64,000 bases of DNA from a virus (taxonomy: Duplodnaviria; Heunggongvirae; Uroviricota; Caudoviricetes), in the IMG/VR virus record IMGVR_UViG_3300029740_000238. The stretch is one strand, 5' to 3'. Below are positions 4,735-49,672 of the stretch, one piece after another. Positions within the stretch are counted from its first letter, which is position 1. Every line of letters begins with the position of its first letter. The translations under genes and the position numbers were made by a program. The notes under the pieces are model-generated. The model saw nothing but the letters and a program-made list of their open reading frames with translations, did no database searches and was not told the DNA's origin.

Positions 4735-4739
4735 AGCCT

Positions 4740-30325: not shown

Positions 30326-30792
30326 TGTTTTTCTCCTCCCACAATTCTTCTAACATAATTATATCATATTTTACAGATGGACGGGCCAAAATCGCAACTT
30401 TGTTCATGAATACTTAACCTTTATGCACGAGATTTATTGTTGCCTTAATATATAAAACTAGAGCCCCGTCATCTTGGATGGGGCTCTTGAGTTGTAGCTG
30501 GAGGTGTATCTCATTTTGTGCCAGGGGTATTGTATGGTAGTTTTCGAAAATGAGTGCAAAAAAACAAACACCAGAAGTCAAACTCAAAAATATCTTAGTC
30601 TTGGCAAGTTTACCCTTGCGCTGCTGTGCGAACTTCGTACAATAAGAATTGTACAAGAGAAACGGCAAGAGACATTTGTAGTGATTGTAGTTGGTCGCCA
30701 CGAATCGATGCCGCATCTGCTTGCGCATAATTACCTCTTTTCGAAGCCCACAGGTCATTCTCTCACCTGTGGGTTTTGTTTATTGCGGAATC

Positions 30793-30810
30793 GTGCGAAT
30801 TGCGGACAAT
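30793..30810 (+). promoter_or_regulatory. Recurrent promoter-like motif GTGCGAATTGCGGACAAT
   Basis: Family consensus GTGCGAATTGC-N-TACAAT. A partial second copy AGTGCGATTGTGAG follows. Confidence 0.45.
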
Positions 30811-30829: not shown

Positions 30830-31190
30830 AGATGGGGCGATACCGATGCAGTAGGGATGAGAATCTTAGCAGCTAAAAGAGTCAACAACCCCGCCTAAAC
30901 CGGTTCGGCGGTTATAGACGGGGCTTGCGGGGCAACCTGTAAGCCCAGTTGATTAGCCTAAGCCCATTGCTCCGGCAGTGGGGAAAACTACGTTGTGTAC
31001 TAATAATATAGGCACCTTATCCATGCTCCACAAGTGGTGAGCTCTGCAGGCGTTTCGTTAAACATCTCCGAGGGGAGGAGAAGTGCGAGCGTTATGTCGA
31101 AAGGCTAAAACAGTGCATAACATTGGCGAAGTGGACCACAGGACGCAAGTCCTGACTTATAGTTTTATTACTATTTTACGAATGGAGAAA
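30830..31190 (+). other. About 360 nt of GC-rich, hairpin-dense non-coding sequence upstream of the flotillin gene; candidate structured leader or ncRNA
   Basis: Multiple stems (CCGCC..GGCGG, GGGCTT..AAGCCC, CCCATTG..CAGTGGG, AGGAC-GCAA-GTCCT plus a U-rich tail) and no ORF. Confidence 0.35.
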
Positions 31191-31198
31191 CAAAAATT

Positions 31199-32842
31199 AT
31201 GGTATATGTGATTGGAATTGTGGCAGCCCTGATTATTCTCTTTGGATTTCTCTGCTACAAGAAAGCTCCGCCCACGGAGGCTATCGTTGTAACTGGCTTT
31301 GGCCTGTCTAAGCCTAAAGTGGTTTGCGGAAAGGGTACATTTGTTCTGCCCGTTCTTCAACGGGCTGACCGACTGAATATGCGCCTTTTGAAAATCGATG
31401 TCAAGACTCCTGAAACAGGTGTTAAGACGAAGAACGGCGTAAGTCTCTGGATTGACTCTGTTGTCACGATTCAAGTCTACAGCGAAAACTCTACCGTTCT
31501 GGATGAAGAAGTGAAGGCATCCGGTCTGAAAGACGCCAAGGCGTACATCATGTCCCGCCAGCAGGCAGCCATCTCGAACTTTCTCGGCATGAACGAGCAG
31601 GGCATCAATGAGAAAGTTAATGACGTTCTGCAGGGCAATTTGCGTGAGATTGTCTCTGACATGACCGTTGACCAAATTCTGACGAACCGCAAGCAGATGG
31701 CTGTGAGCGTTATCGAGAATGCTCGCCCCGACCTTGCTAAGATGGGACTTGAGGTCGTGACTTTTAATGTCCAGGACATCAGGGATGCAGTGGATGTTCA
31801 AGGCCACAATCACGGCGTTATCGAAGCTATCGGCATCGAACAGGAAGAGCTCGTAAAGAAACAGGCTGAAATTGCCCGTGCTCAGGCTGCCCGTGATGTA
31901 GCCTGCGCGAAGGCCGATGCTGAGATGGCTGCAAATGCCAAGGAAGTTGAAGCGCAGACTGCGATTGCAAAACGCAACAATGAATTGCAGCTCGCCAAGG
32001 CAAAGCTGAAAGCTGAAGCTGATAAAGCTGCGGCTGACGCAGATGCTGCCGGTCAGATTCAGATGAATCTCCGCGCCAAAGAAATCAAAGAAGCGGAAGC
32101 GGATGCTGAAATCGCCAAGCAGAAGAAAATGGTAGACCTTGCCGCACAGGAAGCCGAGGTCCAGCAACGCAAACTGGATGCGGAAGTCCGCAAACAGGCA
32201 GATGCTGACCTGTACCGCTGCCAGAAAGAGGCAGAAGCCAAGAAATATGAGGCGGAACGTGCAGCTGAGGCACAGAAGTTCTCTAAGCAGCAGGAAGCAG
32301 AAGGCATTGAGCTTGTCGGTAAGGCAGAAGCTGAAGCGATTCGTCAGAAAGGCTTGGCTGAAGCGGAAGCCATGAAACAGAAAGCAGAGGCATATAAGCA
32401 GTATAACGATGCGGCTGTGGCTGAAATGCTCATCAAGGTTCTTCCTGACATTGCCAAGAGCGTGGCTCAGCCTTTGTCCAGCATTGATAAGGTTTCTATC
32501 ATTGGCGGTGATGCCTCCGGCGTATCCGGCGTTTCCGGGAACGTTCCTATCCTGATGGCTCAAACCATGCAGACGGTGAAAGAAGCGACCGGCATTGACA
32601 TGGGCGAAATTGTCCGTGCCAACAGCATCCAGGCAAAGACAGACCGCAACATCAACATTATGACTCAATGTGAACAGCCTGAGAATAACAAAGAGAAAGG
32701 AGGTGCCAAGGCAATGGAACGCGTAGAAGGCGGCTATCTGATTCATGAGAAGAATCTCAACGGTGAGGAAGTCACTCATTTTCGACCGGATGTGACCGAA
32801 GAAGAGAAGGCTATCATGAAAGACAAAAAGGCCAAAGATTAA
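31199..32842 (+). CDS. Flotillin-like SPFH/band-7 protein with an Ala/Glu/Lys-rich coiled-coil region
   Basis: N-terminal TM helix, SPFH core and long EA-repeat coiled coil, as in FloT/YuaG. Confidence 0.8.
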   Translation: MVYVIGIVAALIILFGFLCYKKAPPTEAIVVTGFGLSKPKVVCGKGTFVLPVLQRADRLNMRLLKIDVKTPETGVKTKNGVSLWIDSVVTIQVYSENSTVLDEEVKASGLKDAKAYIMSRQQAAISNFLGMNEQGINEKVNDVLQGNLREIVSDMTVDQILTNRKQMAVSVIENARPDLAKMGLEVVTFNVQDIRDAVDVQGHNHGVIEAIGIEQEELVKKQAEIARAQAARDVACAKADAEMAANAKEVEAQTAIAKRNNELQLAKAKLKAEADKAAADADAAGQIQMNLRAKEIKEAEADAEIAKQKKMVDLAAQEAEVQQRKLDAEVRKQADADLYRCQKEAEAKKYEAERAAEAQKFSKQQEAEGIELVGKAEAEAIRQKGLAEAEAMKQKAEAYKQYNDAAVAEMLIKVLPDIAKSVAQPLSSIDKVSIIGGDASGVSGVSGNVPILMAQTMQTVKEATGIDMGEIVRANSIQAKTDRNINIMTQCEQPENNKEKGGAKAMERVEGGYLIHEKNLNGEEVTHFRPDVTEEEKAIMKDKKAKD

Positions 32843-32974
32843 AGACAACGAATGAAAAGAGGGTGACTCGAAAGAGCCATCCTTTTTTCTGTTGTGACGC
32901 AAACGAAAAGTTCATGGTAGCCATCCAATTTGGGTGACTGTCTTTTTTGCATGTTAAGGCTTTGTTGCTGAATT

Positions 32975-32992
32975 GTGCGAATTGAAGATAAT
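32975..32992 (+). promoter_or_regulatory. Recurrent promoter-like motif GTGCGAATTGAAGATAAT
   Basis: Family member about 55 nt upstream of the 33047 gene. Confidence 0.4.
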
Positions 32993-33577: not shown

Positions 33578-35314
33578 TTAGAATCCAATGCTTGCAGGAA
33601 GAGAACTTCCAACCGCCTGCAAGCGATGCTTTGTATTTTCGTGCATTTCTAAAAATGCAGGAAAAGCTGAATTAAGGGTTTCCATATTGTACTGCAAGGA
33701 TTCGATATCTATATGTTCAAGCAGGAAGGCAGAATATAAGTCACGCTGGACTACTTCTCCGCTGTGGAGACGAGCCATTCGCTCGGATAGTTTCTTTTTG
33801 GTATAACTTTCATCTGTATGGTCAAATTGCGAGGCTTTTGTTTCAAAGGTGCTGACTTTGATAACGCTGCCGCCATAACGATTGGCTTTTTTGTTCAGGA
33901 TGGAAATAAACATTGCGGGGGCGCAGCGGCTTAGAGACTTTCCGAACCGTTTTTTCGTATGTGCTCTGCCAGTTTTAGCGTTGATTTTTGTTTCTTTGCT
34001 GCGCTTCTGCAAGGCTTTGTAGTTCATATCTTCAACCACAAACTCGTTACCATATGCCAACAATTCGTTGGCGAGAATGTTGTGCTCCATTTTGCGAATG
34101 TCAGCTAACTTACGGTACAGGTTACGAAGCTTTGCACGCAAACGATAATACCTTTTGCTGTATTTCCACTTGCGCTTTTGTTTTTGTCCATGCTGTCGCT
34201 TCAACCTTTTGATTGTACCATCCGAATTATAGTATTTCGGATTCGTAGCGCGGCGCGAACGGTCCATTGCACGAAGCGTACAAGCGATTTCGTTCACGAG
34301 GCTTTTTGCCTGCGCTCTTGCAGACGGAGCGAGTACGCGAAGGTCGCAAACATCCTTACCGCTAAAGGCAATGGTTTGTGTACCGATATCAAGACCTATG
34401 CGCCCTTGATTGACAGGATGCTTCATCACACCGTTACTGTCGCATTTGGTGGGAGGATAGCCTTCTAAGATGAATTGTGCATAATACTTCCACTTGGTCT
34501 TAACCCACTTACGAGTAATGCGGCAGTATTTCACTCCACATTTGAGAGCTTCTTGCTGATATTTTCCTGTCTGAGTTTTAGGATTACGCAACACAACAGG
34601 AAATTCATGCTTTCCGTACACAATGCGCAGGTTGCCTTCTCCGATAGTGGGCTTAATTTTTGCGATAGCGGCAGCAATTTCAGCTTCCATTTGTGGTTTT
34701 ACCTCATCAGGAAGAACGACTTTCTTATCGTCTTTAGGGTCAGGCCGCCCGTACATATCATCGTATCGCTTCTCGACGGCTTTTTGCGCCTTGCGCTTAG
34801 CCGACTCAATATTGCTTGTAGTGAGGTTTGCCGGGCGAAGCACGATACCGGTGAAGTTGTTTTTTCCGGAGATAGCTGCTAAATCATCTAACCTTTTGTA
34901 GTGAACCTCTTTTCCTTTGCTAAAGAAGAAAGTGCTCCATGCTTTCCAAACATCAGAGGCAACTGCCTGTGCTATATGGGAGTTTATGGCATAGTGCTTC
35001 GCGTACGGCACAACCAACTTATGAAAAGCATCTTCAGAAAAACGATATTCTTTAAGCATCTTTTCGCGTTGCTTAAAGAGTGTTTTTTGCTCATCGCTGT
35101 CGGGAGTTGCTTTTGCAATAGCTGCCATCAACTCACGATACTTGCGCGTCTTGCGCAATTGATGCCACATTTTTGTAGTCGCACTCACAAGCTGATTGTA
35201 GATGACACCACACTTCTTGAACTCCTTATACAGATAGTCTTGCTCGTTGAGACTTATATCAAGAGGCAATGTCAATACAAATGATGGCGTGCTATTCTTG
35301 CTCCCGAAAGCCAT
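33578..35314 (-). CDS. tnpB: TnpB (IS605 OrfB family, RuvC-like RNA-guided nuclease homolog)
   Basis: GLDIG (RuvC-I), VVEDMNYKALQKR (RuvC-II) and C-terminal QRDLYSAFLL (RuvC-III-like) motifs. 578 aa. Confidence 0.75.
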   Translation of the reverse strand: MAFGSKNSTPSFVLTLPLDISLNEQDYLYKEFKKCGVIYNQLVSATTKMWHQLRKTRKYRELMAAIAKATPDSDEQKTLFKQREKMLKEYRFSEDAFHKLVVPYAKHYAINSHIAQAVASDVWKAWSTFFFSKGKEVHYKRLDDLAAISGKNNFTGIVLRPANLTTSNIESAKRKAQKAVEKRYDDMYGRPDPKDDKKVVLPDEVKPQMEAEIAAAIAKIKPTIGEGNLRIVYGKHEFPVVLRNPKTQTGKYQQEALKCGVKYCRITRKWVKTKWKYYAQFILEGYPPTKCDSNGVMKHPVNQGRIGLDIGTQTIAFSGKDVCDLRVLAPSARAQAKSLVNEIACTLRAMDRSRRATNPKYYNSDGTIKRLKRQHGQKQKRKWKYSKRYYRLRAKLRNLYRKLADIRKMEHNILANELLAYGNEFVVEDMNYKALQKRSKETKINAKTGRAHTKKRFGKSLSRCAPAMFISILNKKANRYGGSVIKVSTFETKASQFDHTDESYTKKKLSERMARLHSGEVVQRDLYSAFLLEHIDIESLQYNMETLNSAFPAFLEMHENTKHRLQAVGSSLPASIGF

Positions 35315-35318
35315 AAAG

Positions 35319-35720
35319 TTACCCTCCTCTCTTTTTTTGCTGTTCTACATAGTGTTGAATCGTAGCGGTAGACACATCTCCGGCAGTGCTTACAAAATAG
35401 TTGCGTGTCCACATTTGCATTTCGATGTCGGGAAAAAATTCTTTCTTTAATTGCCTGCCGGTGGTTCCTTTAATAATTTTCATGATTTCTGCAGCACTTA
35501 ATGTAGGCGGAGCATTCACGAAAAGATGACAATGGTCGATATGACATTCCATTGCCAGTATCACAATGTCGTTTTGCTCACAAATTTGAGTTACAAGTTC
35601 CTTGAAACGAGCTTCAAACCCATCCACCAGAAATAATTTTCTCCGATAGCGTGGGCAAAACACAAAGTGATAATTTATCATAGAAACGGTTGTTTTTGTG
35701 CGTCTGTAGTTTCTTTTCAT
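35319..35720 (-). CDS. tnpA: IS200/IS605 TnpA (Y1 HUH transposase)
   Basis: HIDHCHLFV (HuH) motif and a catalytic Tyr in RNYFVSTAG. Confidence 0.85.
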   Translation of the reverse strand: MKRNYRRTKTTVSMINYHFVFCPRYRRKLFLVDGFEARFKELVTQICEQNDIVILAMECHIDHCHLFVNAPPTLSAAEIMKIIKGTTGRQLKKEFFPDIEMQMWTRNYFVSTAGDVSTATIQHYVEQQKKRGG

Positions 35721-35920
35721 GTATCTATTTTATCACAATTCAGACAATTTTATGTTACAGATATATGAACTTTATATCACAACATCGTCACATTACAATT
35801 ATATTGGCAAATACGAAGAAAACCATTATTGTCGGCCTATCATCCCACGGTTGAAACCGTGGGCTTTCCCGGCCTTCATTTTGTAAAGACAAAAAGCGTC
35901 TTCTCAGAGCAGGCTGACCA

Positions 35921-36227
35921 AATGCTGTATCAGGTACGGCGCTTCGGGCAAAAAATGGCCGTTGCCTACAGCATGACCCAGGATAGCAAGACGTCCGGGG
36001 AACAAGCCAAGTGCCTAACGTTATTGGAATCCGCAGAACGTATCTTCTATGACCGACTGGATGACGCGATTCGCTCGGCTTCAATGTTTGATGAAACGGA
36101 ATACAAGGCTTTCTGTCTGGTCGGAAACGGCACGGTCATCAGCTACCAGTGCCGGTCGATGGATGAGGCGGTCGATATGGTCGCCGCCTTGTACAATGGC
36201 AGAAAAACAGAAGCAGCGCAAGCATAA
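35921..36227 (+). CDS. Hypothetical protein, possibly 5'-truncated by the IS insertion
   Basis: ORF 35829..36227 begins inside the IS left end. The first plausible internal start is at 35921. Confidence 0.3.
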
Positions 36228-36247
36228 CCATCCTGCAAAAATATATG

Positions 36248-36284
36248 CCGTTCATCTTTTTGGGTGGACGGCTTTTTGTTTTGT
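36248..36284 (+). terminator. Rho-independent terminator (GGGTGGACGGCTTTTTGTTTTG family)
   Basis: GCCGTTCATC ... GGGTGGACGGC stem plus T-run. Confidence 0.55.
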
Positions 36285-36316
36285 GAATACAGCGATTCAG
36301 TGGCGAAGCGAGCCGA

Positions 36317-36373
36317 TTTTACCAGCAGTTTGATATTCTGCGGCATGATTTCCAGCAGTTTGATACTCTGTGG
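36317..36373. repeat. Tandem copies of TTT(A)CCAGCAGTTTGATAYTCTGYGG
   Basis: Copies at 36317-36343 and 36349-36373. A third copy is at 42521-42547. Confidence 0.7.
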
Positions 36374-36386
36374 GCAGTTGCACAGC

Positions 36387-36404
36387 CGTGCAAATTGCAT
36401 ACAA
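36387..36404 (+). promoter_or_regulatory. Recurrent promoter-like motif variant GTGCAAATTGCATACAAT
   Basis: Family member downstream of the tandem repeats. Confidence 0.4.
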
Positions 36405-36748
36405 TGGGAATTGGAAAACAAAAAGAGCGATGCAAGGCTGTATTTACAAAAAATCCTGTGAGCGTTTTTTAGTATTCATTAAACGACACGAAATTCAACA
36501 AAACGCGAAGAGAATACAAGAAAAGGTGAATGAAATCCGGCTGAGGCGGATAAAACTTGCGCTGAGTGGTTTGAAGTCCGGACAATGGGACAGCTAAAGT
36601 GGTAGAATGAAACAAGGAATACCTAAAATCAGATTTAACCGAAAAAACAAAAACCATGAATGAATAATTGGTTGCTAAAAAGTAACCGCTCGCTTTTATA
36701 CCCAAACCAACAAATGACACAAATCTGTTTAGAAAGGATAGGCACAAA

Positions 36749-38914
36749 ATGGCAAGAAGGAAAACAAACGACTTGGAAAATCAGATGTCGCTGATGGACA
36801 TGATGGCATCGGAAAGCCCCGAATATACCGAAGAAGGCCCGGAAGAACTCTTGGACCCCGGCGAGGACATGGAGGACAGTGAAGGGCAGACGGATAAGCC
36901 CTTCAAACTCGTGGCGAACAAGACCACGAAGGCAAAGGCGAGCATCTCCACGCAGGCGTTGAGTGTTGTGAAGGCGGTATATGCTGATACGGTAGAAACG
37001 AATTGGGAAGAGTTGTTTGACGGGTTCGACAGACTCTATGCTATCACTTTTTCGTCCGGTATCGAGTTCGTGAATAAGGTCATCAACAAGTTCTCGTATG
37101 CGGAAGTCGTGTTCGGCTGCGAGAAAATCATCGCCAACGACATTGCTGCCATCATGTCGGTGCAAATCGACAGCGTGCAGCGGCTCGCTAAGTCTAAGTC
37201 GGCAGGGAACCTTGCGAACCGCCTCGATGACGGGTCTTTGCAGCTGTATGTATCGCGAGACACGAAATCGCACGAGAAAATCTTTATCTTGGAGAGCGCT
37301 GACCATAAGCGTGTCCGAGTCATCACCGGCAGTGCGAATATGTCGGCATCGGCGTTTTGCGGCATTCAGCGAGAGAATATCGTCTGCTTCGATGACGAGG
37401 CGGCATTTTCGCATTACAAGGTTCTGTTCGAGACCTTCAAGGAGACCTGCTCCGACAATGTCTCCTATAAGGCAGTCGTGAACACCATGAACCAGGAAGA
37501 TTATCTGAAAGAGAACATCAAAGAAGTACCCGTCTTTCAGTCTATTGAAAAGCAGAAGCTTGTCTTTCTGGAACAGGCACAGCCTGAGGATGAGGTCGAA
37601 TACGAGATAGTTGCCGATGTCAAGAAAATGCAGGAACTCGTCAAGCCAATCATGCCTAAGATGCCGGTACAGGCGAATCGTATTGTAGTGGCAGCGGAAC
37701 CGATGCGCGTTTTCGGGAAACGATATACCGAGGTTCGGCGTGTGGCAGCTGAGGCAGTTAAGCAGCTCCCGAAATTACATATCGACTATGATGCCGGGAC
37801 CATGACCTTCAACGACGAGAATATCGACCTCAATCCGAATCTCAGCGAGGTGGCAAAGAACATCAAGAGCATCCAGAAGTTCTTCTCAGGCATGGACTAC
37901 TTTTACGGCGATATCGAGCAGGCCAAGAAGGACTACTTCAAATACATGACCTGGTATCTGGCTACTCCGTTCATGGCGTATCTGCGGTATTTCGCATCGA
38001 GGAACAACTACGATACGAAGCTGTTCCCGATGTACGGCGTTATATACGGCGACTCAAACGGCGGCAAGACGACATTTATAAAATTTCTTGTCAAACTCAT
38101 GTGCGGTGAGACCGTTAAGATGAACACGACGGAGGATTTCACAGCCACAAGAATCGACGGCCTCAAACGAGTTTGTGAGGGACTGCCGCTGAACATCGAC
38201 GACCTCGCCAAGACCCAGTTTCAGAACCATTCAGAACGGGTAATCAAGAACGATGAATGGGGTATCTCGGACAGGCTTGTGAACTATCCTGCTGTATCTA
38301 TCACATCGAATAAAATTACCTCGCTGACAAAAGACCTCTCGAAACGCGCTATCATCTGTCGAATTGGTGCTAAAATCGACAACGAGCGCGGTGCCAAGAA
38401 CTCGAAGCGTGTGAATGAGAGTATGTCGGAGCTGACAACCGCGTTCTATGGCGAATATGTCCGCCGAATGCTTGTTTGCATCGATGAGATGACGACGGAA
38501 ATGCGTGAAAATGCGAATGGCAAGGAATACTTCCCGGATATCTTCCACGCTTCGTCTAGCGTCATTGCAGATATCTTCGAGGCATGCGGAATCGATTTGC
38601 CGGACTATGTGCGTATCCTGTACTATAACGACTATATGGGTGATGAGAGCATTGGTCGTGCTGCAATTGAGAAAATCGAACTGGCATGGCAGGCTGACCC
38701 GAGCAAGTTCCGGGTCGATAAGAAGCAGAACAGGCTCATTTACTCCTATCCGCCGGATGGACCGTGGTACGAACTGAAATACATTGCAGATGAGCTGCCG
38801 AACTCCCTCGAAGCAGAGATTTCTGGCGGCAACCAGCTTATCATGAACTACGAGCAGGCACAGGAATTGTTCGGCATCAAGTTTCGGCGCTGGCTGGGCA
38901 TCTTTAACCTCTAA
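36749..38914 (+). CDS. Large protein with an N-terminal PLD/HKD-like nuclease motif and a C-terminal P-loop NTPase (VirE/primase-C-terminal-like)
   Basis: SHEKIFILE ... ITGSANMS resembles an HxK ... GSxN motif. Walker A YGDSNGGKTTF and Walker B LPLNIDDL. Confidence 0.55.
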   Translation: MARRKTNDLENQMSLMDMMASESPEYTEEGPEELLDPGEDMEDSEGQTDKPFKLVANKTTKAKASISTQALSVVKAVYADTVETNWEELFDGFDRLYAITFSSGIEFVNKVINKFSYAEVVFGCEKIIANDIAAIMSVQIDSVQRLAKSKSAGNLANRLDDGSLQLYVSRDTKSHEKIFILESADHKRVRVITGSANMSASAFCGIQRENIVCFDDEAAFSHYKVLFETFKETCSDNVSYKAVVNTMNQEDYLKENIKEVPVFQSIEKQKLVFLEQAQPEDEVEYEIVADVKKMQELVKPIMPKMPVQANRIVVAAEPMRVFGKRYTEVRRVAAEAVKQLPKLHIDYDAGTMTFNDENIDLNPNLSEVAKNIKSIQKFFSGMDYFYGDIEQAKKDYFKYMTWYLATPFMAYLRYFASRNNYDTKLFPMYGVIYGDSNGGKTTFIKFLVKLMCGETVKMNTTEDFTATRIDGLKRVCEGLPLNIDDLAKTQFQNHSERVIKNDEWGISDRLVNYPAVSITSNKITSLTKDLSKRAIICRIGAKIDNERGAKNSKRVNESMSELTTAFYGEYVRRMLVCIDEMTTEMRENANGKEYFPDIFHASSSVIADIFEACGIDLPDYVRILYYNDYMGDESIGRAAIEKIELAWQADPSKFRVDKKQNRLIYSYPPDGPWYELKYIADELPNSLEAEISGGNQLIMNYEQAQELFGIKFRRWLGIFNL

Positions 38915-38975
38915 TATGCATGGCAGGTTCTTTTCGGAGCCTGCCTTCTTATTTCGCAAAAATAGTTGCCCATTT

Positions 38976-38993
38976 GTGCGAATTGCAGACAAT
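38976..38993 (+). promoter_or_regulatory. Recurrent promoter-like motif GTGCGAATTGCAGACAAT
   Basis: Family member. Confidence 0.45.
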
Positions 38994-39076
38994 CAGAAAT
39001 AAAGCATAAAGCAAAGGAGCTGAGTACCATCTCAAAATTTGCAAGCAAAAAGTTGATTGAGCGAAATTGGAATATC

Positions 39077-39544
39077 ATGAAAGACTACGGCAACGGCTAT
39101 TCCATTGAGGAGCTTGCCGCAAAATACAGGTTGAGCGTCCGTACATGCTATCGAGCGTTAGACGACGCGAAACAGGAGGCCAGAATTCAGTTGGCGCAGG
39201 TAGAGGATGCTAGAAAGGCCGAAATTCTTGCGGCATACAAGAACAGTGTCCCTCTCAAGGAAATGATTGCGAAATTTAACGTGGCAGAAGGATATTGCAG
39301 CATGGTTGCCAACGATGCGGGCCTGACTGAAAACCGTAGAAATGAGCGCATCAAAATTAGACAAAGACCGCGCAATGAGAATATCTTTCGAGAATACGAG
39401 AGTGGCGTACCGGTGCAGAAACTATCCGAAAAATATCAGCTCTCGGTTCCTGGTATTTACAAGGTTATCCAGCGAGTGAGAAGGCAAAAGGAGGCGATGA
39501 GTCTTGCAATGGATTGTGAAGCAAACCAAATCGAAAGGATATGA
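39077..39544 (+). CDS. Small DNA-binding protein with three tandem helix-turn-helix repeats (sigma-70 region 4 / resolvase-HTH-like)
   Basis: Three similar ~45-aa segments (SIEELAAKYRLSVRTCYRAL / LKEMIAKFNVAEGYCSMVA / VQKLSEKYQLSVPGIYKVIQR). The start is uncertain (ORF opens at 38966). Confidence 0.5.
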   Translation: MKDYGNGYSIEELAAKYRLSVRTCYRALDDAKQEARIQLAQVEDARKAEILAAYKNSVPLKEMIAKFNVAEGYCSMVANDAGLTENRRNERIKIRQRPRNENIFREYESGVPVQKLSEKYQLSVPGIYKVIQRVRRQKEAMSLAMDCEANQIERI

Positions 39545-40142
39545 GTTCACCTTCGATATCGTGAAAGGCAAGGCCGTTATCGGGCAGGCACACTATATCC
39601 CGAAATTGCTACGGCAGGGTTATGGCATCCGGCTGAATGATTCCAAGTTTCTGCTGCAATACATGCCAGCTGCTGACGCAAGGGCGTACATGCGCGGCAT
39701 CAACACGAAAGATATTCTGAGACACCCTTTTGCTATCCGTGAGAACAACTGCACGGTAGGCGAGATTTCCGTCATCCATACAAAAACCGGATTCCTCCAA
39801 GGATACAATTCTATCGCCATGCAGCTGTATGGCGAGGAATACCAAAGCTACAAAATTGGTTTTGGAAAAGAAGGAGTATGCTGCCCTGTATTCCTTTGCG
39901 GACAGCAAATCGCCCAAATCAATAAGAGCGCGGTGGTCAAGGATAATCTGGATGAATACCTGATTTACGCAGTGAATGAAAAAGCACTGATGCCGTCCGT
40001 TATGTTCGCCATTTATATCGATGGGATATACTACGCAAACCGAGGCATGTATGTGGATGACGCAACGACTATCAACTGCGAATACAGCTTGAACGAGGAA
40101 GTCCTGTCCCACTACGACCCGAATTTTGTCAAAGGACTATGA
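39504..40142 (+). CDS. Hypothetical protein
   Basis: TTG start with AAAGGAGG 9 nt upstream. 212 aa. Confidence 0.5.
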   Translation: MQWIVKQTKSKGYEFTFDIVKGKAVIGQAHYIPKLLRQGYGIRLNDSKFLLQYMPAADARAYMRGINTKDILRHPFAIRENNCTVGEISVIHTKTGFLQGYNSIAMQLYGEEYQSYKIGFGKEGVCCPVFLCGQQIAQINKSAVVKDNLDEYLIYAVNEKALMPSVMFAIYIDGIYYANRGMYVDDATTINCEYSLNEEVLSHYDPNFVKGL

Positions 40143-40185
40143 CTCCGATAACTGGTATTCACAGACAATATCATGTTGCGAAACT

Positions 40186-40203
40186 GTGCGAATCGCAGAC
40201 AAT
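40186..40203 (+). promoter_or_regulatory. Recurrent promoter-like motif GTGCGAATCGCAGACAAT
   Basis: Family member 40 nt upstream of the 40243 gene. Confidence 0.45.
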
Positions 40204-40242
40204 TAAAAGTGAATGAATTACAAAAGCTACAGAGGATAAACA

Positions 40243-40839
40243 ATGAGCTATGAACCCATTATCACACCGGGCAGGAATTTCTTTCTTGTCTCGACGGAGT
40301 ACAAAGAGAGCTGCTCTGCCTGGTGCCGCAAGCAAATTAGAGCGACACTGAGGACCTGTCAGGGACGAGTCATCATCATTGATGCAACGGGCGAGTACGC
40401 GGACTTGGCGCTTGAACATGACAGATTGATTCGAGAGAAAATCCCGTCCATCATTTATCGGTATAAGCTGGTGGACGGGAAACCGTATATTGCTCATGTC
40501 ATTGAAGTTGATACGGAAGCAAATGAAGCACCGCACCTGATTGTATACGATATCAGCCGGACCATAATCACCAGCTGGAAGGTCGGCGTGGAGGCAATTG
40601 ATAAAATCCTGCAATCCTATGCCGTGATGCAGGACAGTGAAATTGCGTGGCTGTATGTTCCGTTGGACCTATATACCAATGTCAAGCCCGAAAGCGAATC
40701 CTGGAACATTTTGGAACGAACCATCAAGGGCAATGAAGGAAAGCTCATGACAGTACTGACGACTCGCAAATTCACCATTGGGATGGTCCAGCGCTGTTTG
40801 CATATGACAAAAAATAAACTTTTGGAGGATAGCAAATGA
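40243..40839 (+). CDS. Hypothetical protein
   Basis: 198 aa. RBS AGAGGATAA. Confidence 0.55.
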   Translation: MSYEPIITPGRNFFLVSTEYKESCSAWCRKQIRATLRTCQGRVIIIDATGEYADLALEHDRLIREKIPSIIYRYKLVDGKPYIAHVIEVDTEANEAPHLIVYDISRTIITSWKVGVEAIDKILQSYAVMQDSEIAWLYVPLDLYTNVKPESESWNILERTIKGNEGKLMTVLTTRKFTIGMVQRCLHMTKNKLLEDSK

Positions 40840-41723
40840 CCAATGAACAGCTGAGAATCGCATTGACAGCGAATGCCGTTACCAAACAGACCCGTAACCA
40901 TTTTGGGTTCAGTGACCCGTGTGGGAAGACTCTGGAAGAGTACAACAAATCTTCAACGCTTTGCTGTGTGACGGCAGCGCAGAAAATGAACACGCCGGGT
41001 TTTGAGCGTGTTTTGGCTGCGCAGATTTTTCCCTGCTTTACCATTGGCTGCTGGAATCAGACAAAGACGGTCTATGATTTTGACTACGAGTTTCAGAAAA
41101 TGCTGATGGATACGGATGACGTGGCAATTCATCAGGATATTCTGCAGCGACTCCCGGCTCGTGATTTCTTTATCCCGGTGTATGACAGCTACGACTACAA
41201 CGGTATGTTCGTGCATGTGGAATTCGAAGAGAAAGAGAAGACCACTGCTTTCGGCATCGTTCTTGTCGGCCCGGCCAAAGGCAGCCATGATGATTTCACG
41301 TTCCTGACTCTGCCTGCCTGGGCCAAAGAAAACCAGAGCTTGACGGAAGCAACTCGGAGCACGAAAGAATACCTGGAAAAGGCAGCCGGGCAGCGGCAGG
41401 TAAATGGAATCAGTGTACCGGCTGTGATGGAAGCAGTTCCTTCGGTCTTTGACGGCGGCACACCTTATGTTCGCCTGGCAATCCTGTGTGCCTACTATCT
41501 TGCCAGTAAGAACCCTGATGTCCGCTTGGAAACTTCCAAAAAGCGTGACCGCCCGGTATTCGTGTTTCAGGGAAAGGCACAGCGAATCAACGTCAAGACA
41601 TATACCGTTGGTGAGAATGCGGCCAAAGAATACAAAAAGAATGGGGAAGGCAAAACTCCCCGCTGGCGGCATTACTGGTGCGGCAATAGCCGGGAACGCC
41701 GGGAACGCAAGTTTATTTACTGA
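40836..41723 (+). CDS. Hypothetical protein
   Basis: 295 aa. ATGA overlap with the upstream gene. Confidence 0.55.
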   Translation: MTNEQLRIALTANAVTKQTRNHFGFSDPCGKTLEEYNKSSTLCCVTAAQKMNTPGFERVLAAQIFPCFTIGCWNQTKTVYDFDYEFQKMLMDTDDVAIHQDILQRLPARDFFIPVYDSYDYNGMFVHVEFEEKEKTTAFGIVLVGPAKGSHDDFTFLTLPAWAKENQSLTEATRSTKEYLEKAAGQRQVNGISVPAVMEAVPSVFDGGTPYVRLAILCAYYLASKNPDVRLETSKKRDRPVFVFQGKAQRINVKTYTVGENAAKEYKKNGEGKTPRWRHYWCGNSRERRERKFIY

Positions 41724-41741
41724 TGGCGGTGAGGGTGAATC

Positions 41742-42449
41742 ATGGCTCCCCATACTTATCAGGACCCGATTGGGTTCTATGAATGGTTCGATGACCTTCC
41801 TTATGCTATCCAGGATAGTATTCTGAAACACCTGCCGCATATGGAAGGCGAGGAATGGCTCATTGTCATTATCCTTGCAGCTCTTCTTCTGATGATTCTG
41901 GTTTCAGCGTATCTGGGCTTTGCAAGACATAATGTCAAAAAAACGAGTGAACGACTCAACGCTTTGAAAGAGCTGAACAACGCGACTGAATTCATGCCGG
42001 TCGAGGCGCAGTACCGCTACTATCTACGTTCTGATACGAAGCTGGAATACGAGGAGTTCTCGCTCCCGAAGTTCTTTCGCCGTGAAGTGAGGGAAAACTT
42101 CAAGCTGTACAATACCCTGCTTGGCAATGCTCGGGCAAACACGGTATTGTATGAAACATACGGCCGCGAAATCCAGGAACTCCCGGATTGGACAGAATCG
42201 GATGACGATTGCGGGCGGCATATCCCGTTCTTTCTCTACCACAACATCGAGAAAGAGTTGTACGATGAAACCGTCCTGGACTGCCCCGTAACGAGCCCTG
42301 AGTTTGTCTGTACGAAAAGCTATCTGCCCAAAGATGCCAAAGAGCCGATTGAGACGGAAGAAACCTATACGCTGGAAGAGCTCGAAGAGTACATACGCCG
42401 CTTGAAGGTTGCAGCCGATGTCAAGAAGAACAGCCAGAACGCAGGCTGA
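41742..42449 (+). CDS. Hypothetical membrane-anchored protein
   Basis: 235 aa. One TM helix (WLIVIILAALLLMILVSAYLGF). Confidence 0.55.
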   Translation: MAPHTYQDPIGFYEWFDDLPYAIQDSILKHLPHMEGEEWLIVIILAALLLMILVSAYLGFARHNVKKTSERLNALKELNNATEFMPVEAQYRYYLRSDTKLEYEEFSLPKFFRREVRENFKLYNTLLGNARANTVLYETYGREIQELPDWTESDDDCGRHIPFFLYHNIEKELYDETVLDCPVTSPEFVCTKSYLPKDAKEPIETEETYTLEELEEYIRRLKVAADVKKNSQNAG

Positions 42450-42520
42450 AAAAAGTCAGCAGCCATAAGCAAGAAGCAGGGCCCTGTGTTTCATGGTTCC
42501 AGAACGTCTTCCCACCTTAA

Positions 42521-42547
42521 TTTTACCAGTACTTTGATATTCTGTGG
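42521..42547. repeat. Third copy of TTTTACCAG(T/C)A(C/G)TTTGATATTCTGTGG
   Basis: Matches the tandem pair at 36317-36373. Confidence 0.65.
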
Positions 42548-42588
42548 CCATTGACAAACGGCGCAAAAGGTGCTTGGGTTAAAAGCCC

Positions 42589-42616
42589 TTGCAAAAAAGT
42601 GCAATATCCATATAAT
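42589..42616 (+). promoter_or_regulatory. Sigma-A-type promoter
   Basis: TTGCAA, then 16 nt, then TATAAT, about 28 nt upstream of the 42644 start. Confidence 0.55.
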
Positions 42617-42643
42617 AAGAAATCCAAAAGGGAGATACACATT

Positions 42644-43252
42644 ATGAGTGAACAGAAAGAAAATGCTCAGCTCGAAGCTTATCGGAAGCTCGTTGAAGAT
42701 TTCAAGCGCTTCGTCAGTTCTGAAATTCGGGCAGAAGAGAACAGCTACAGGATTGTGGACATGACTTCCGAAGATGCCGAAATCGATGACCCGAGCGTTC
42801 CGGTGACTCAACTGGAGGACGAAAAAGCAGAGAAGCTTGCCGGTATTTGCATGGACCTGTCCAATGCCACGCTGTGGCTCTACTACAACCGTGACAAATT
42901 TGCAAACGTCGAGTTTATGCCCCTGACTGATGAAACTCTGAAAGAATACCAGAAGCAGGCTCAGAATGCTCTGAATGAACCGAAGAGCCCTCTGTATCTG
43001 AAATCCTGGTATCAGCTCATTGAAATGTTGAGTCAGGAATGTATCCCGCAGCGCTACGAGGACGACGGTCAGCGATATACAGACGTCTATGTGAACACCT
43101 ATATGCTCATGTACCTGACCATGACCCGACTCAAGAATGGCGGAACCTTTACACGCCTTGCAAACGGGCAGGGAAGCGATGCTGTGAAAATCACGACCAT
43201 CGCAATGTACTACTTCTCCAGCCTTTTGACGGTTCTCTGCACTGAATATTAA
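42644..43252 (+). CDS. Hypothetical protein
   Basis: 202 aa. RBS AAAGGGAGA. Confidence 0.55.
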   Translation: MSEQKENAQLEAYRKLVEDFKRFVSSEIRAEENSYRIVDMTSEDAEIDDPSVPVTQLEDEKAEKLAGICMDLSNATLWLYYNRDKFANVEFMPLTDETLKEYQKQAQNALNEPKSPLYLKSWYQLIEMLSQECIPQRYEDDGQRYTDVYVNTYMLMYLTMTRLKNGGTFTRLANGQGSDAVKITTIAMYYFSSLLTVLCTEY

Positions 43253-43262
43253 GAAATTTTTT

Positions 43263-43302
43263 CCCGTGTGAGCAGCGACGCTCATGCGGGAATTTTTTTG
43301 TA
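43263..43302 (+). terminator. Rho-independent terminator
   Basis: 13-bp stem TTCCCGTGTGAGC / GCTCATGCGGGAA followed by TTTTTTTG. Confidence 0.65.
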
Positions 43303-43320
43303 ATTTTCTATTGTCAATCT

Positions 43321-43338
43321 GTGCGAATTACGTACAAT
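43321..43338 (+). promoter_or_regulatory. Recurrent promoter-like motif GTGCGAATTACGTACAAT
   Basis: Family member. Confidence 0.45.
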
Positions 43339-43372
43339 GAAAAATATAAACCAAAAATATATCTTATCGTTG

Positions 43373-43410
43373 TCCCGCATGAGTTGTTTGTGCGGGACTT
43401 TTTTGTTTGC
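43373..43410 (+). terminator. Leader hairpin plus T-run between the promoter-like motif and the small gene
   Basis: Perfect 8-bp stem GTCCCGCA / TGCGGGAC followed by TTTTTTGTTTG. Confidence 0.5.
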
Positions 43411-43426
43411 GGAAAGGAAATGCACT

Positions 43427-43624
43427 ATGTACGGTTTATCAGAAGAAAGCTTAACGATTGTTGGTGTTATTTTGATTGTGGTTGGTGTCGCTATGATTGG
43501 TTGGGGATTTGAATGGAATCAGGACATTACCAATGATAAACGGGTCGGAACCGTTGTCAGAGACATTGGCGTTATGGTTTTGGCAACCGGCATTATATTT
43601 GTGATGCAGCGGGCAATGAACTAA
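43427..43624 (+). CDS. Small membrane protein (65 aa)
   Basis: Two hydrophobic helices. RBS AAAGGAAAT. Confidence 0.45.
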   Translation: MYGLSEESLTIVGVILIVVGVAMIGWGFEWNQDITNDKRVGTVVRDIGVMVLATGIIFVMQRAMN

Positions 43625-43679
43625 ATTGAGAAAAAGTAAGGCAGGCTCATTTCGGGCTTGCTTGTTTTTTGGGTGAAAT

Positions 43680-45879: not shown

Positions 45880-46434
45880 ATGCGTACAAACAAGACGGCA
45901 AGCCATATTTACTATGAGCTTGACCACGATGTGCAGGAATATGCGAAACGGCTTTTAGCCAAAAAAATTCTGCACGCGGCACAGCAGAACAATGCCGCTC
46001 CGTTATCTGATAAAACGGCAAAGAAGACTGCTGAGACGGCAGTATTTCTGACCGAACGCCTCGCGCTTTTGTATGAGCTGAATTCTGGATTCCGAGGCAT
46101 CCGATTCAGCACTTTCGGAGAACAACCTGCTGTTTACACTACCATGGTCCAGCACAATGCTCCGCTGTACGATGAGCTGATGCTTGGACGGGCCTATAAC
46201 CTTGCCAACTACCTTGCTGCTGATAACGCGGATATCAAAGAATCTGCTTTGATGAAGCACAAGGTTTTGGCAGCAATTTATAGTGCCGCTGCGCACATAA
46301 GGGAACAGACTTTGGAACCGGGGAAAATCAAGGTTCAGAGCCAGCTGTTTGTGTCTACGGCTGTTGAGCTGTTCAGCAGCCTTTTGGATGCAGTGGCAGA
46401 GAAAAAGAACGACAGCAATAAAAGTGCCGCCTGA
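45880..46434 (+). CDS. Hypothetical protein
   Basis: 184 aa. RBS CAGGAGG. Confidence 0.55.
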   Translation: MRTNKTASHIYYELDHDVQEYAKRLLAKKILHAAQQNNAAPLSDKTAKKTAETAVFLTERLALLYELNSGFRGIRFSTFGEQPAVYTTMVQHNAPLYDELMLGRAYNLANYLAADNADIKESALMKHKVLAAIYSAAAHIREQTLEPGKIKVQSQLFVSTAVELFSSLLDAVAEKKNDSNKSAA

Positions 46435-46456
46435 GTTAGAAATTAGGGGAGTTTGC

Positions 46457-49357: not shown

Positions 49358-49592
49358 GGTGTACTCCTTTCAAATGTGTCATTTGCTGTATAATAATGTC
49401 ATCTTCTGTAATTATAATAGCACATCTCGTACTAAAAAGCAAGCATGAATTTACAATAAATGACAAGAAAATACACGAGATGACATATTTGGGCAAAGCG
49501 GTTGATTTTTGGCATTTCCTGTTCAGCAACGGAACAAGTCCCATGTGCCTTGTCTTTGTCACGGCTTTGCCATATTTTTGCCTTGTGCATCC

Positions 49593-49610
49593 GTGCGAAT
49601 TGAATATGAT
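49593..49610 (+). promoter_or_regulatory. Recurrent promoter-like motif variant GTGCGAATTGAATATGAT
   Basis: Family member upstream of hsdM. Confidence 0.4.
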
Positions 49611-49635
49611 GGGAAATATAAAATAAATAAGTGTA

Positions 49636-49672
49636 AGCCGCAGAGATTATGTTTCTGCGGCTCTTTCTTTTG
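49636..49672 (+). terminator. Leader hairpin plus T-run between the promoter-like motif and hsdM
   Basis: Perfect 9-bp stem AGCCGCAGA / TCTGCGGCT followed by CTTTCTTTTG. Confidence 0.5.

What the first reader, a model, noticed from the sequence alone, without database searches (positions are those of the whole stretch)
36317..36373. Tandem TTTACCAGCAGTTTGATATTCTGYGG repeats (third copy at 42521) upstream of a PLD-like plus P-loop protein
Two adjacent 25-bp copies, plus one more 6 kb away, flank a block of hypothetical genes (36749-42449). The first gene of the block encodes a P-loop NTPase of the primase-C-terminal/VirE type fused to an HKD-like nuclease motif. Repeats next to a primase- or helicase-like initiator are reminiscent of pri-rep/ori modules of integrative elements. 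Each repeat contains an inverted GCAG..CTGC pair.
Basis: partly seen in the sequence, partly recalled or inferred. Interest (0 to 1): 0.6.

Follow-up and report, generated by a model that had tools for sequence, protein, structure and literature searches.

The report
Operator boxes beside two plasmid promoters
The three 26-base repeats are real and conserved, but they sit directly against the promoters of two linked genes on a gut Clostridiales conjugative plasmid, so they are most likely binding sites for a transcription regulator and not a replication origin, which in related plasmids lies elsewhere.

Summary
Three copies of a 26-nt box lie at 36318-36343, 36348-36373 (30-bp period) and 42522-42547; none is expected by chance.

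The origin reading does not hold:
- Each box ends 3-4 bp before a -35 hexamer (TTGCAC; at site B TTGACA, 37 nt ahead of the family promoter).
- One box set precedes the PLD/helicase gene (36749-38914). The other precedes the ORFan at 42644-43252.
- In about 50 related contigs the box-to-promoter distance never varies. Copy number is 1, 2 or 3. The boxes are more conserved than their flanks.
- The window is a conjugative plasmid. Two related contigs that carry the boxes also carry a Rep_3 initiator with at least 14 unrelated iterons, an AT-rich stretch and ParA/ParB.
- A 91%-identical PLD/helicase gene exists without boxes. The boxes exist without that gene.

Distant homologues, however, sit in defence-island-like contexts.

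The boxes are most likely operators of an unidentified regulator, in the manner of the Reg576 operators of plasmid p576. This is a new member of a known kind and of modest interest.

The parts
36247..36272 (+). Intrinsic terminator of the upstream gene (35829-36227). It separates that transcript from the box-plus-promoter module.
   Evidence: 11-pair stem followed by a T run. The sequence is conserved in relatives.
36318..36343 (+). Box 1 (distal), TTTACCAGCAGTTTGATATTCTGCGG, at about -94 to -69 from the inferred start of P1.
36348..36373 (+). Box 2 (proximal), ATTTCCAGCAGTTTGATACTCTGTGG, at about -64 to -39. It ends 4 bp before the -35 hexamer.
   Evidence: (offset of 36 nt to the promoter core in every relative).
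36377..36405 (+). Promoter P1, a member of the element-wide promoter family. The -35 is TTGCAC (36378-36383) and the -10 is TACAAT (36400-36405), with the conserved spacer GTGCAAATTGCA.
   Evidence: (family D1). In relatives 21 of its 29 positions are invariant.
36557..36586 (+). Weaker second promoter-like site P2 inside the 337-nt leader (TTGCGC, 18-nt spacer, GACAAT). L171 lacks the boxes and P1, and keeps only this part of the leader.
36749..38914 (+). Gene for the 721-aa PLD nuclease fused to a Cch/SaPI-Rep-like AAA+ ATPase (Pfam Aq_aa27 family).
38922..38945 (+). Terminator after the PLD/helicase gene.
38965..38993 (+). Plain family promoter with no box. It forms the junction between the two architectures seen in relatives.
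39077..39544 (+). Mor-like protein with two HTH domains (HTH_28/HTH_23 plus the Mor/CD3324 family). It is a candidate box-binding regulator, with no supporting evidence beyond position and domain content.
42522..42547 (+). Box 3 (site B), TTTACCAGTACTTTGATATTCTGTGG, at about -101 to -76 from the inferred start of the promoter of the 42644 gene.
   Evidence: One search gave a 73-nt offset to the promoter core in the three site-B relatives whose core passed the mismatch filter.
42551..42588 (+). Conserved stretch between box 3 and the promoter. It opens with a perfect TTGACA 3 nt after the box and has no credible -10. Its role is unknown.
42589..42616 (+). Family-type promoter of the 42644 gene (TTGCAA, 16-nt spacer, TATAAT).
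42644..43252 (+). 202-aa ORFan. Its 36-38%-identical homologue lies directly after the PLD/helicase gene in architecture B and in L171, which suggests it is a functional partner.
43261..43292 (+). Terminator closing the 42644 cassette.

Best explanation
The 26-nt boxes are cis-regulatory protein-binding sites (operators or upstream activating sites). They place two promoters of a Clostridiales conjugative plasmid under one sequence-specific regulator. The two promoters are P1 of the PLD-nuclease/Cch-like helicase gene and the promoter of the 202-aa ORFan at 42644.

Shown:
- The box is a discrete element of about 24-26 bp.
- It ends 3-4 bp before a -35 hexamer, always in the same orientation.
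- Its distance to the promoter is invariant across relatives.
- The same positions are conserved in all three box classes (TT.CCAG.A.TTTGATATT.T..GG).
- It is conserved more strongly than its flanks.

Inferred:
- A regulator binds each asymmetric box. The two conserved blocks, CCAG and TTGATA, lie about one helical turn apart. That fits a protein with two HTH units or a head-to-tail dimer.
- The 30-bp tandem boxes at P1 allow cooperative occupancy next to RNA polymerase.
- I favour repression. About 13 other promoters of the same family in the window carry no box and are presumably active without one, and the products include a nuclease.
- In that case transcription would burst when the plasmid enters a regulator-free recipient or when the regulator is inactivated, as in the Reg576 system of p576. 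Activation is not excluded.

The regulator is not identified. The Mor-like two-HTH protein encoded between the two promoters is the nearest candidate.
For: - Position: box 2 ends at 36373 and the -35 hexamer TTGCAC starts at 36378. Box 3 ends at 42547 and TTGACA starts at 42551.
- Fixed geometry: the proximal box core starts exactly 36 nt before the promoter core in all 48 site-A clusters where the core could be scored. The offset was 73 nt in the three site-B relatives whose core passed the filter.
- Restricted regulon: about 15 promoters of the same family occur in the window, all on the + strand, but only two carry boxes. In 2.17 Mb of fetched loci, and in a scan of all IMG/VR contigs, box-like sequences from this plasmid family occur only at these two kinds of site.
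- Footprint in 31 distinct two-copy sites, as mean major-allele frequency: boxes 0.945 and 0.938 (18 and 19 of 26 positions invariant), promoter 0.981, upstream flank 0.816, leader 0.787. Distal, proximal and site-B boxes share the same pattern of conserved positions.
- Copy number is 1 (5 distinct sites), 2 (32) or 3 (1), always with a 30-bp period.
- The two regulated genes are adjacent in architecture B and in L171. Co-regulation therefore makes sense where they are separated, as in the window.
- Precedent: in p576, dual direct heptamers immediately upstream of the -35 of four strong promoters (the establishment-gene promoters and the repressor's own) are operators of the repressor Reg576 (PMC8708921).
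- The region has no unusual single-strand structure (z -0.20 and -0.34).
Against: - No binding protein is identified.
- The Mor-like gene has close homologues only in architecture-A contigs. No recognisable DNA-binding gene lies within 13 kb upstream of the boxes in an architecture-B relative.
- No third box-bearing promoter was found in front of a regulator gene, which an autoregulated repressor would predict.
- The footprint comes from closely related plasmids and from ungapped comparison, so indels inflate the apparent divergence of the flanks.
- The direction of regulation is a guess.
- All promoter assignments are sequence-based. No transcription start has been mapped.
Confidence: 0.7

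Rival explanations
1. The boxes are iterons of a replication origin, and the PLD/helicase protein is its initiator. It would bind the boxes, load itself as a helicase and also autoregulate its own promoter.
For: - From general knowledge, iterons that overlap the rep promoter and serve for autoregulation are common in plasmids.
- The 337-nt leader is moderately AT-rich, 54-69%.
Against: - Two related contigs that carry the boxes also carry Rep_3, at least 14 unrelated iterons, an AT-rich stretch and ParA/ParB. L204 comes from the same contig as L043, and L208 from the same contig as L072.
- L171 has a 91%-identical protein with no boxes, 10 kb from its Rep_3 gene.
- L063 keeps the boxes and lacks the gene.
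- Box 3 serves the promoter of a different gene.
- There are only 1-3 copies, and no DnaA box was found next to the repeats.
- SaPI-type origins lie 3' of rep, with 6-12 opposed iterons. Nothing comparable follows this gene.
- Homologues at 25-45% identity lie in a WYL-PIN7 operon beside restriction-modification and McrB-like genes, in an integrase and Type ISP island, or as a two-gene cassette between metabolic operons.
- No tandem upstream repeats were seen in three distant homologue loci, apart from one weak AT-rich pair.
Confidence: 0.06
2. The boxes have no function of their own. A 30-bp slippage duplication happened upstream of one promoter, and the third copy is a leftover from the duplication of a promoter module.
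For: - Copy number varies between 1 and 3, as expected for slippage or unequal crossing-over.
- The element shuffles cassettes by recombination within its repeated promoters: L063 is a deletion between two such promoters.
- The relatives are closely related, so conservation is weak evidence.
Against: - Homology between site A and site B is confined to the box. The sequences on both sides differ, and about 13 other promoters of the family lack the box.
- The boxes are clearly more conserved than their flanks, and the same positions are conserved in all three classes.
- Orientation and spacing to the -35 never vary.
- At least one box is retained in every relative that has P1.
Confidence: 0.14
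3. The boxes are recombination sites that bound a mobile 6.2-kb cassette (36.3-42.5 kb), acting as att-like direct repeats or as targets of a site-specific recombinase.
For: - Direct repeats bracket a gene block whose content differs between architectures A and B.
- An IS200/IS605 pair lies just upstream, at 33578-35720.
Against: - The junctions between architectures map to the shared promoter cores and not to the boxes.
- In architecture B the boxes occur only at site A, so they do not bracket anything there.
- No recombinase gene lies in the block.
- No relative shows the deletion product expected from box-by-box recombination.
Confidence: 0.04

Closest known systems
Reg576 operators (dual motifs, EGeRS2) at the establishment-gene promoters of Bacillus plasmid p576 and clade II of the pLS20 family (PMC8708921)
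   Same: [quoted passage not shown] Both occur at several separate promoters of a Gram-positive conjugative plasmid, in a variable, multi-operon accessory region.
   Different: - The p576 motif is 2 x 7 bp (TTATCCCnnTTATCCC). Here the box is an asymmetric 26 bp repeated every 30 bp.
- In p576 the ribbon-helix-helix repressor and its autoregulated promoter are known. Here no regulator and no box-bearing regulator promoter were found.
- Only two promoters carry the box here.
- It is not known whether this region is the leading (first-transferred) region.
Iterons of Rep_3-type theta plasmids, and the SaPI rep-ori module
   Same: Both involve direct repeats near a gene whose ATPase domain has the Cch/SaPI-Rep helicase fold. 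The plasmid family does use iterons, but at a different place.
   Different: - The real iterons of this plasmid family are about 15-nt AAACTCCYTTTATCA units, at least 14 copies over about 1.7 kb, next to an AT-rich stretch and a Rep_3 gene.
- SaPI iterons are 5-6 nt, 6-12 copies, opposed around an AT-rich centre and located 3' of rep.
- The boxes here are 26 nt, 1-3 copies, 5' of the gene and directly against a -35. They are also found at an unrelated gene.
Mor- and C-dependent middle and late promoters of phage Mu (from general knowledge)
   Same: A Mor-family HTH protein is encoded next to promoters whose regulatory site lies just upstream of the -35.
   Different: - Mor and C bind dyad-symmetric sites that overlap the -35 region of promoters with poor -35 elements. 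The boxes here are asymmetric and lie wholly upstream of the -35.
- The local protein has an extra N-terminal HTH.
- The local protein is absent near the boxes in architecture B.
PLD-nuclease restriction enzymes with motor or DNA-binding modules (SauUSI, NgoAVII, BfiI), and the Cch and SaPI Rep helicases, as relatives of the 721-aa protein
   Different: - None of the solved structures matched in the fold and sequence searches combines a PLD domain with a Cch-like ATPase. SauUSI pairs PLD with a helicase motor that aligned only poorly with this model, and by general knowledge that motor is an SF2 helicase.
- No primase domain was identified.
- No PADLOC defence model matches convincingly; the best hit is ZacB at E 0.003.
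- The function of the family (Pfam Aq_aa27) is untested.

Membership tests
Iteron-type plasmid replication origin | An array of several (usually at least 3-4) tandem iterons | tested here: not met
   The boxes occur as 2 copies plus 1 isolated copy in the window. In relatives the count is 1 copy (5 distinct sites), 2 (32) or 3 (1).
Iteron-type plasmid replication origin | An adjacent A+T-rich unwinding region, often with DnaA boxes | tested here: not met
   No DnaA box with up to 1 mismatch lies next to the repeats. The nearest, at 34476 and 40052, are about 1.8 and 3.7 kb away. The leader is 54-69% A+T with no sharp AT block. By contrast L208 3960-4020, next to Rep_3, is almost pure A+T.
Iteron-type plasmid replication origin | A cognate initiator gene that always accompanies the repeats | tested here: not met
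   L171 has a 91%-identical PLD/helicase gene and no boxes. L063 has the boxes and no such gene. The family's Rep_3 gene with its own iterons lies elsewhere.
Iteron-type plasmid replication origin | Autonomous replication of the fragment and initiator binding to the repeats | not testable with these tools
   This needs cloning of 36250-38950 and binding assays.
SaPI-type pri-rep-ori module | A Rep helicase of the Cch/SaPI fold | tested here: met
SaPI-type pri-rep-ori module | A primase gene or primase domain next to rep | tested here: not met
   The N-terminal half is a PLD nuclease and not a primase. No primase domain was found in the neighbouring ORFs.
SaPI-type pri-rep-ori module | An origin immediately 3' of rep, with 6-12 short iterons in opposed sets around an AT-rich centre (PMC9371898) | tested here: not met
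   The 3' side, 38915-39075, holds a terminator and a family promoter only. The boxes lie 5' of the gene, are 26 nt long and all point the same way.
Promoter-proximal operator repeats of plasmid regulons (p576 Reg576 type) | Repeats immediately upstream of, or overlapping, the promoter hexamers | tested here: met
   The boxes end 3-4 bp before the -35 hexamers. The offset to the promoter core is invariant in relatives.
Promoter-proximal operator repeats of plasmid regulons (p576 Reg576 type) | The same motif at more than one promoter of the element | tested here: met
   The motif occurs at site A and site B, before two different genes, and was found nowhere else in the plasmid family.
Promoter-proximal operator repeats of plasmid regulons (p576 Reg576 type) | Motif conserved above background | tested here: met
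   One search gives 0.94 for the boxes against 0.79-0.82 for the flanks. One search shows the same conserved positions in all three box classes. The caveat is that the relatives are close and the comparison was ungapped.
Promoter-proximal operator repeats of plasmid regulons (p576 Reg576 type) | A cognate regulator encoded on the element, usually autoregulated through the same motif | tested here: inconclusive
   The Mor-like two-HTH gene is a candidate only in architecture A. No box-bearing regulator promoter was found.
Promoter-proximal operator repeats of plasmid regulons (p576 Reg576 type) | Demonstrated binding and an effect on transcription | not testable with these tools
   This needs gel-shift or footprint assays and reporter fusions.
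Mor/C-activated promoters (phage Mu type) | A dyad-symmetric activator site overlapping the -35 region | tested here: not met
   The dyad GCAG..CTGC is perfect in only 1 of the 3 copies in the window. Its positions are the variable ones and show no covariation. The box lies wholly upstream of the -35.
PLD (HKD) nuclease superfamily, for the 721-aa protein | The HxK(x)4D/E...GSxN motif and the PLD fold | tested here: met
Cch/SaPI-Rep/SF3-like AAA+ helicases, for the 721-aa protein | Walker A and B motifs, a sensor-1 Asn, an Arg finger and the ATPase fold | tested here: met
   G434, G439 and K440 are invariant. A DD follows the nearly invariant G478 and P480, and N521 and R533 are invariant. Reading these four as Walker B, sensor-1 and Arg finger is my inference from their order. 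Helicase activity itself is untested.

The most novel reading that the evidence does not exclude
The PLD/Cch-like protein could be a new kind of nicking initiator. Its PLD domain, which by general knowledge of PLD nucleases such as BfiI works through a covalent phosphohistidine-DNA intermediate, would play the part that the HUH endonuclease plays in HUH-SF3 rolling-circle Rep proteins. The 26-nt boxes would be its recognition sites. This would give the plasmid a second origin, or a DNA-processing site coupled to transfer, in addition to the Rep_3 origin. The evidence makes this unlikely but does not formally exclude it. The protein's DNA specificity is unknown, and its nearest structural relatives are initiator helicases.
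Probability: 0.05. Interest if true: 0.8.

Novelty: new member of a known kind. Interest (0 to 1): 0.3.

Why it matters
If the boxes are operators, they define a small regulon of two promoters on an uncultured gut Clostridiales conjugative plasmid family. That family is very common in metagenomes: the PLD/helicase protein clusters hold about 5000 and 2900 member sequences.

The regulon links two genes of unknown function: an uncharacterised PLD-nuclease/Cch-like helicase (Pfam Aq_aa27) and a 202-aa ORFan. This linkage is a practical lead for finding out what the pair does. Defence, anti-defence and plasmid competition are the obvious candidates, given the defence-island contexts of distant homologues.

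The result also corrects a tempting misreading. A helicase of initiator fold with direct repeats beside it is not an origin here, because the real Rep_3 iteron origin was located in relatives. The finding itself is an ordinary kind of regulatory element.

Tried and rejected
- Megablast of 36000-44000 against phage and plasmid records found nothing. A protein search against phage records found nothing.
- A sequence or profile search of the 721-aa protein against PDB gave only marginal P-loop and NucT hits. PHROGs and NCBIfam gave nothing, and PADLOC gave only ZacB at E 0.003.
- The genome-collection scan returned a single MAG, a Clostridiales bacterium, with the upstream region cut off. The host is therefore known only to order level.
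- Single-strand folding of the repeat region, on both strands, was no better than shuffles. I rejected a hairpin, a single-strand promoter and a single-strand origin.
- Rfam found nothing at the locus.
- The search for a regulator gave little. No HTH or RHH protein is evident among small ORFs of the window by inspection of their translations. None was found by Pfam within 13 kb upstream of the boxes in architecture B. Close homologues of the Mor-like gene occur only in architecture-A contigs.
- The 42644 ORFan has only near-identical homologues plus the 36-38% allele. The shallow-alignment AlphaFold model has pLDDT 38.7 and is unusable. Its similarity to the 194-aa partner of a distant homologue is not significant.
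I reached it instead through a ParA-based locus search.
- Literature searches for the plasmid family and for PLD-SF3 fusions found nothing relevant.
- The first script printed nothing.

Full report
**Observation.** The pattern TTTACCAGCAGTTTGATATTCTGYGG, allowing up to 3 mismatches, occurs three times in the window. The copies are at 36318-36343, 36348-36373 and 42522-42547, all on the + strand. None of 100 dinucleotide-preserving shuffles gave a match. An independent repeat search recovers the same family, with spacings of 30 and 6174 nt (D2). The claimed internal inverted pair GCAG..CTGC is perfect only in copy 1. In 43 distinct instances from relatives those arm positions are the variable ones and do not co-vary.

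**Immediate anatomy.**
- The gene at 35829-36227 ends in a strong terminator at 36247-36272.
- The two boxes follow. Four bases after box 2 comes a promoter: -35 TTGCAC at 36378-36383 and -10 TACAAT at 36400-36405.
- This promoter belongs to a family with the form (G/A)TTGC-N6-GTGCGAATTGCAGACAAT. One search found five members between 33 and 47 kb. extend this to about 15 credible copies between 17.6 and 64 kb. All are on the + strand, and each lies in front of a gene or short operon that usually ends in its own terminator.
- Box 3 is followed after 3 nt by a perfect TTGACA. Then comes a conserved stretch, then a family-type promoter (42589-42616), then a 202-aa ORF (42644-43252).
- A 337-nt leader separates P1 from the start codon of the 721-aa ORF. 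It contains a second, weaker family-like promoter at 36557-36586.

**What the element is.** The window encodes a type IV coupling protein (4-1563) and a VirB4-like ATPase (4731-7400). A long accessory region transcribed in one direction follows. It includes:
- a UmuC-like polymerase and a YpsA/SLOG protein;
- a flotillin;
- an IS200/IS605 pair;
- the PLD/P-loop protein and a Mor-like two-HTH protein;
- a ResIII helicase and a NADAR protein;
- an orphan type I methylase with its S subunit;
- a UvrD-like helicase and a metallo-beta-lactamase-fold protein.

The only genome hit is a Clostridiales MAG. Relatives are very common in metagenomes. In IMG/VR they are filed as viral contigs of 35-346 kb.

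**Comparative evidence on the boxes.**
- A scan of IMG/VR with the box core gave 72 stretches. About 40 belong to this plasmid family, and the rest are an unrelated enterobacterial sequence.
- With the promoter-core scan I held about 50 site-A loci and 16-20 site-B loci.
- The proximal box core starts exactly 36 nt before the promoter core in all 48 site-A clusters where the core could be scored. The site-B box starts 73 nt before it in the three site-B relatives whose core passed the filter.
- Among distinct site-A sequences, 32 have two boxes, 5 have one and 1 has three, always with a 30-bp period.
- In 31 distinct two-box sites the mean major-allele frequency is 0.945 and 0.938 in the boxes, 0.981 in the promoter, 0.816 in the upstream flank and 0.787 in the leader. 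The relatives are close and the comparison was ungapped, so this is supportive and not decisive.
- Distal, proximal and site-B boxes share the same conserved positions, TT.CCAG.A.TTTGATATT.T..GG.
- Homology between sites A and B is confined to the box.
- In 2.17 Mb of fetched loci, box-like sequences from this plasmid family occur only at these two kinds of site.
- As single strands, the region folds no better than shuffled sequence (z -0.20 and -0.34).

**Gene architectures.**
- Architecture A is the window's arrangement: boxes-P1-PLD/helicase, then promoter-Mor-like-g39504, then promoter-g40243-g40836-g41742, then box-promoter-g42644.
- In architecture B, seen in many relatives, the PLD/helicase gene is followed by a terminator, a plain family promoter and a 37%-identical homologue of g42644.
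- In L063 the PLD/helicase gene is missing, and boxes-P1 are fused within the shared promoter core to the g42644-like gene.
- The repeated promoters are therefore the recombination junctions of this cassette array.
- The two box-controlled genes of the window are neighbours elsewhere (also in L171). This argues that they work together.

**The protein.**
- The 721-aa product has the PLD motif SHEKIFILE...GSANMS and the Walker A motif GDSNGGKT. Pfam gives RE_NgoFVII at 3.5e-7 and PLDc_2 at 4e-6.
- It belongs to a large family. The search found 925 representatives at E up to 0.001, of which 285 are below 1e-30. Those listed with 24-45% identity are 640-780 aa long and mostly align over nearly the whole query.
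- K177, G434, G439, K440, N521 and R533 are invariant, and H175, S195 and N197 nearly so. Precomputed Pfam names the C-terminal part Aq_aa27.
- An AlphaFold model built from 44 sequences has mean pLDDT 85.

**Why it is nevertheless not an origin module.**
1. L171 carries a 91%-identical PLD/helicase gene. It has Rep_3, ParA and ParB 10 kb upstream, and no boxes or P1. Only the P2 part of the leader remains.
2. A ParA-based search found the replicon in contigs that also hold the boxes. L204 comes from the contig of L043, and L208 from the contig of L072.
3. In those loci a 495-aa Rep_3 protein (Pfam Rep3_N 1.5e-30) is preceded by at least 14 iterons of consensus AAACTCCYTTTATCA over about 1.7 kb, and by an almost pure A+T stretch. 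These iterons are unrelated to the box, which is absent from these loci.
4. No DnaA box was found next to the repeats. The nearest one-mismatch matches are about 1.8 and 3.7 kb away.
5. There are only 1-3 boxes.
6. SaPI origins lie 3' of rep, with 6-12 opposed 5-6-nt iterons (PMC9371898). Here the 3' side holds a terminator and a promoter.
7. Homologues at 25-45% identity lie in a WYL-PIN7-PLD operon beside restriction-modification and McrB-like genes, in an integrase and Type ISP island with PIN_3, or as a two-gene cassette between metabolic operons. On Acetobacter and Komagataeibacter plasmids the 28%-identical homologues are annotated as PLD-family or hypothetical proteins. In the one plasmid inspected the gene stands alone among toxin-antitoxin genes, a recombinase and a relaxase.

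**Most likely mechanism.** The boxes are binding sites for a sequence-specific regulator that co-controls P1 and the g42644 promoter.
- The two conserved blocks of the asymmetric box lie about one helical turn apart. That fits a protein with two HTH units or a head-to-tail dimer (inference).
- I lean towards repression, because the box-free promoters of the same family presumably fire without help and one product is a nuclease.
- The closest described precedent is p576. There, dual direct heptamers immediately upstream of the -35 of four strong promoters (the establishment-gene promoters and the repressor's own) are operators of the repressor Reg576. This gives a transient burst of expression in recipients (PMC8708921).
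- The regulator here is unknown. The Mor-like two-HTH protein at 39077-39544 lies between the two promoters, but close homologues are confined to architecture A. Nothing recognisable lies within 13 kb upstream in architecture B.
- The 628-aa HTH_3 ORF on the minus strand is a conserved neighbour even where the boxes are absent.

**Verdict.** The protein call is right and the origin interpretation is not supported. The repeats are an ordinary kind of element, promoter-proximal operator boxes, in an uncharacterised and abundant gut plasmid family. The more interesting open questions concern the PLD/Cch-like protein and its ORFan partner.

Noticed in passing
window, about 15 sites on the + strand (for example 30782-30810, 32964-32992, 36377-36405, 38965-38993, 40175-40203, 43310-43338, 55224-55252): An element-wide promoter family, (G/A)TTGC-N6-GTGCGAATTGCAGACAAT, with a strongly conserved spacer. 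It precedes most gene cassettes, and many of these have their own terminator. The 18-nt core occurs in more than 120 IMG/VR stretches. The reason the spacer is conserved is unknown; it could be a shared operator or specificity for an element-encoded factor. Recombination within these promoters shuffles and deletes cassettes (L063).
   Followed up: partly
window 30881-31141 (+): A complete Rfam HEARO RNA (RF02033, the IscB omega-RNA family; 89.7 bits against a gathering score of 83). It lies about 70 nt downstream of a family promoter. The ORF that follows is a flotillin/Band_7 protein (31199-32842) and not an IscB.
   Followed up: no
window 47471-49357 (-): A 628-aa ORF on the opposite strand to nearly all other genes. 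It has an HTH_3 domain at residues 222-269 and a 65-residue stretch (110-175) resembling RNA polymerase beta' (NCBIfam rpoC, E 2.3e-7). Minus-strand ORFs of 626 aa in the same relative position occur in L171 (faint precomputed HTH_3 hit) and L053 (not compared), so it appears to be a conserved neighbour of the PLD/helicase locus.
   Followed up: partly
L208 2300-4100 and L204 2260-4100 (relatives): The replication origin of the plasmid family: at least 14 iterons of consensus AAACTCCYTTTATCA, an almost pure A+T stretch, and then a 495-aa Rep_3 gene, ParA and a ParB_N protein. IMG/VR lists these 172-kb and 346-kb contigs as viral. With the type IV secretion genes in the window, they look like conjugative plasmids.
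   Followed up: yes
window 33578-35720 (-): An IS200/IS605 pair: a Y1 transposase (35319-35720) and a 578-aa TnpB-like ORF (33578-35314). It is inserted just upstream of the gene that precedes the boxes. In relatives two paralogues of that gene lie about 3.5 kb apart, so the window copy may be a recombinant.
   Followed up: no
L027, L041, L095, L142 (relatives): The Mor-like gene is interrupted after residue 71; in L041, L095 and L142 an insert of about 1.9 kb is visible, while L027 ends soon after the break. In L027 and L041 the site-A boxes are within the locus and remain intact.
   Followed up: no
window 49509-52602 (+): A type I N6-methylase and an S subunit, with no R subunit found in the window. 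A NADAR protein (46349-46909), a UmuC-like polymerase (21431-22699) and a UvrD-like helicase (56911-59676) lie in the same one-direction array. This resembles the anti-defence or establishment regions of conjugative plasmids, but oriT and the relaxase were not located.
   Followed up: no
L195 813-4622, L198 6001-10169, L200 6001-8609 (distant homologues): The PLD/Cch-like family (Pfam Aq_aa27) occurs in a WYL-PIN7-PLD operon beside restriction-modification and McrB-like genes, with a PIN_3 gene in an integrase and Type ISP island, and as a two-gene cassette between metabolic operons. This pattern suggests an undescribed defence-type system. No PADLOC model matches it convincingly.
   Followed up: partly
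window 42551-42588 (+): A conserved stretch between box 3 and the promoter. It starts with a consensus TTGACA and has no usable -10. It is conserved across diverged site-B variants, and its function is unknown.
   Followed up: no
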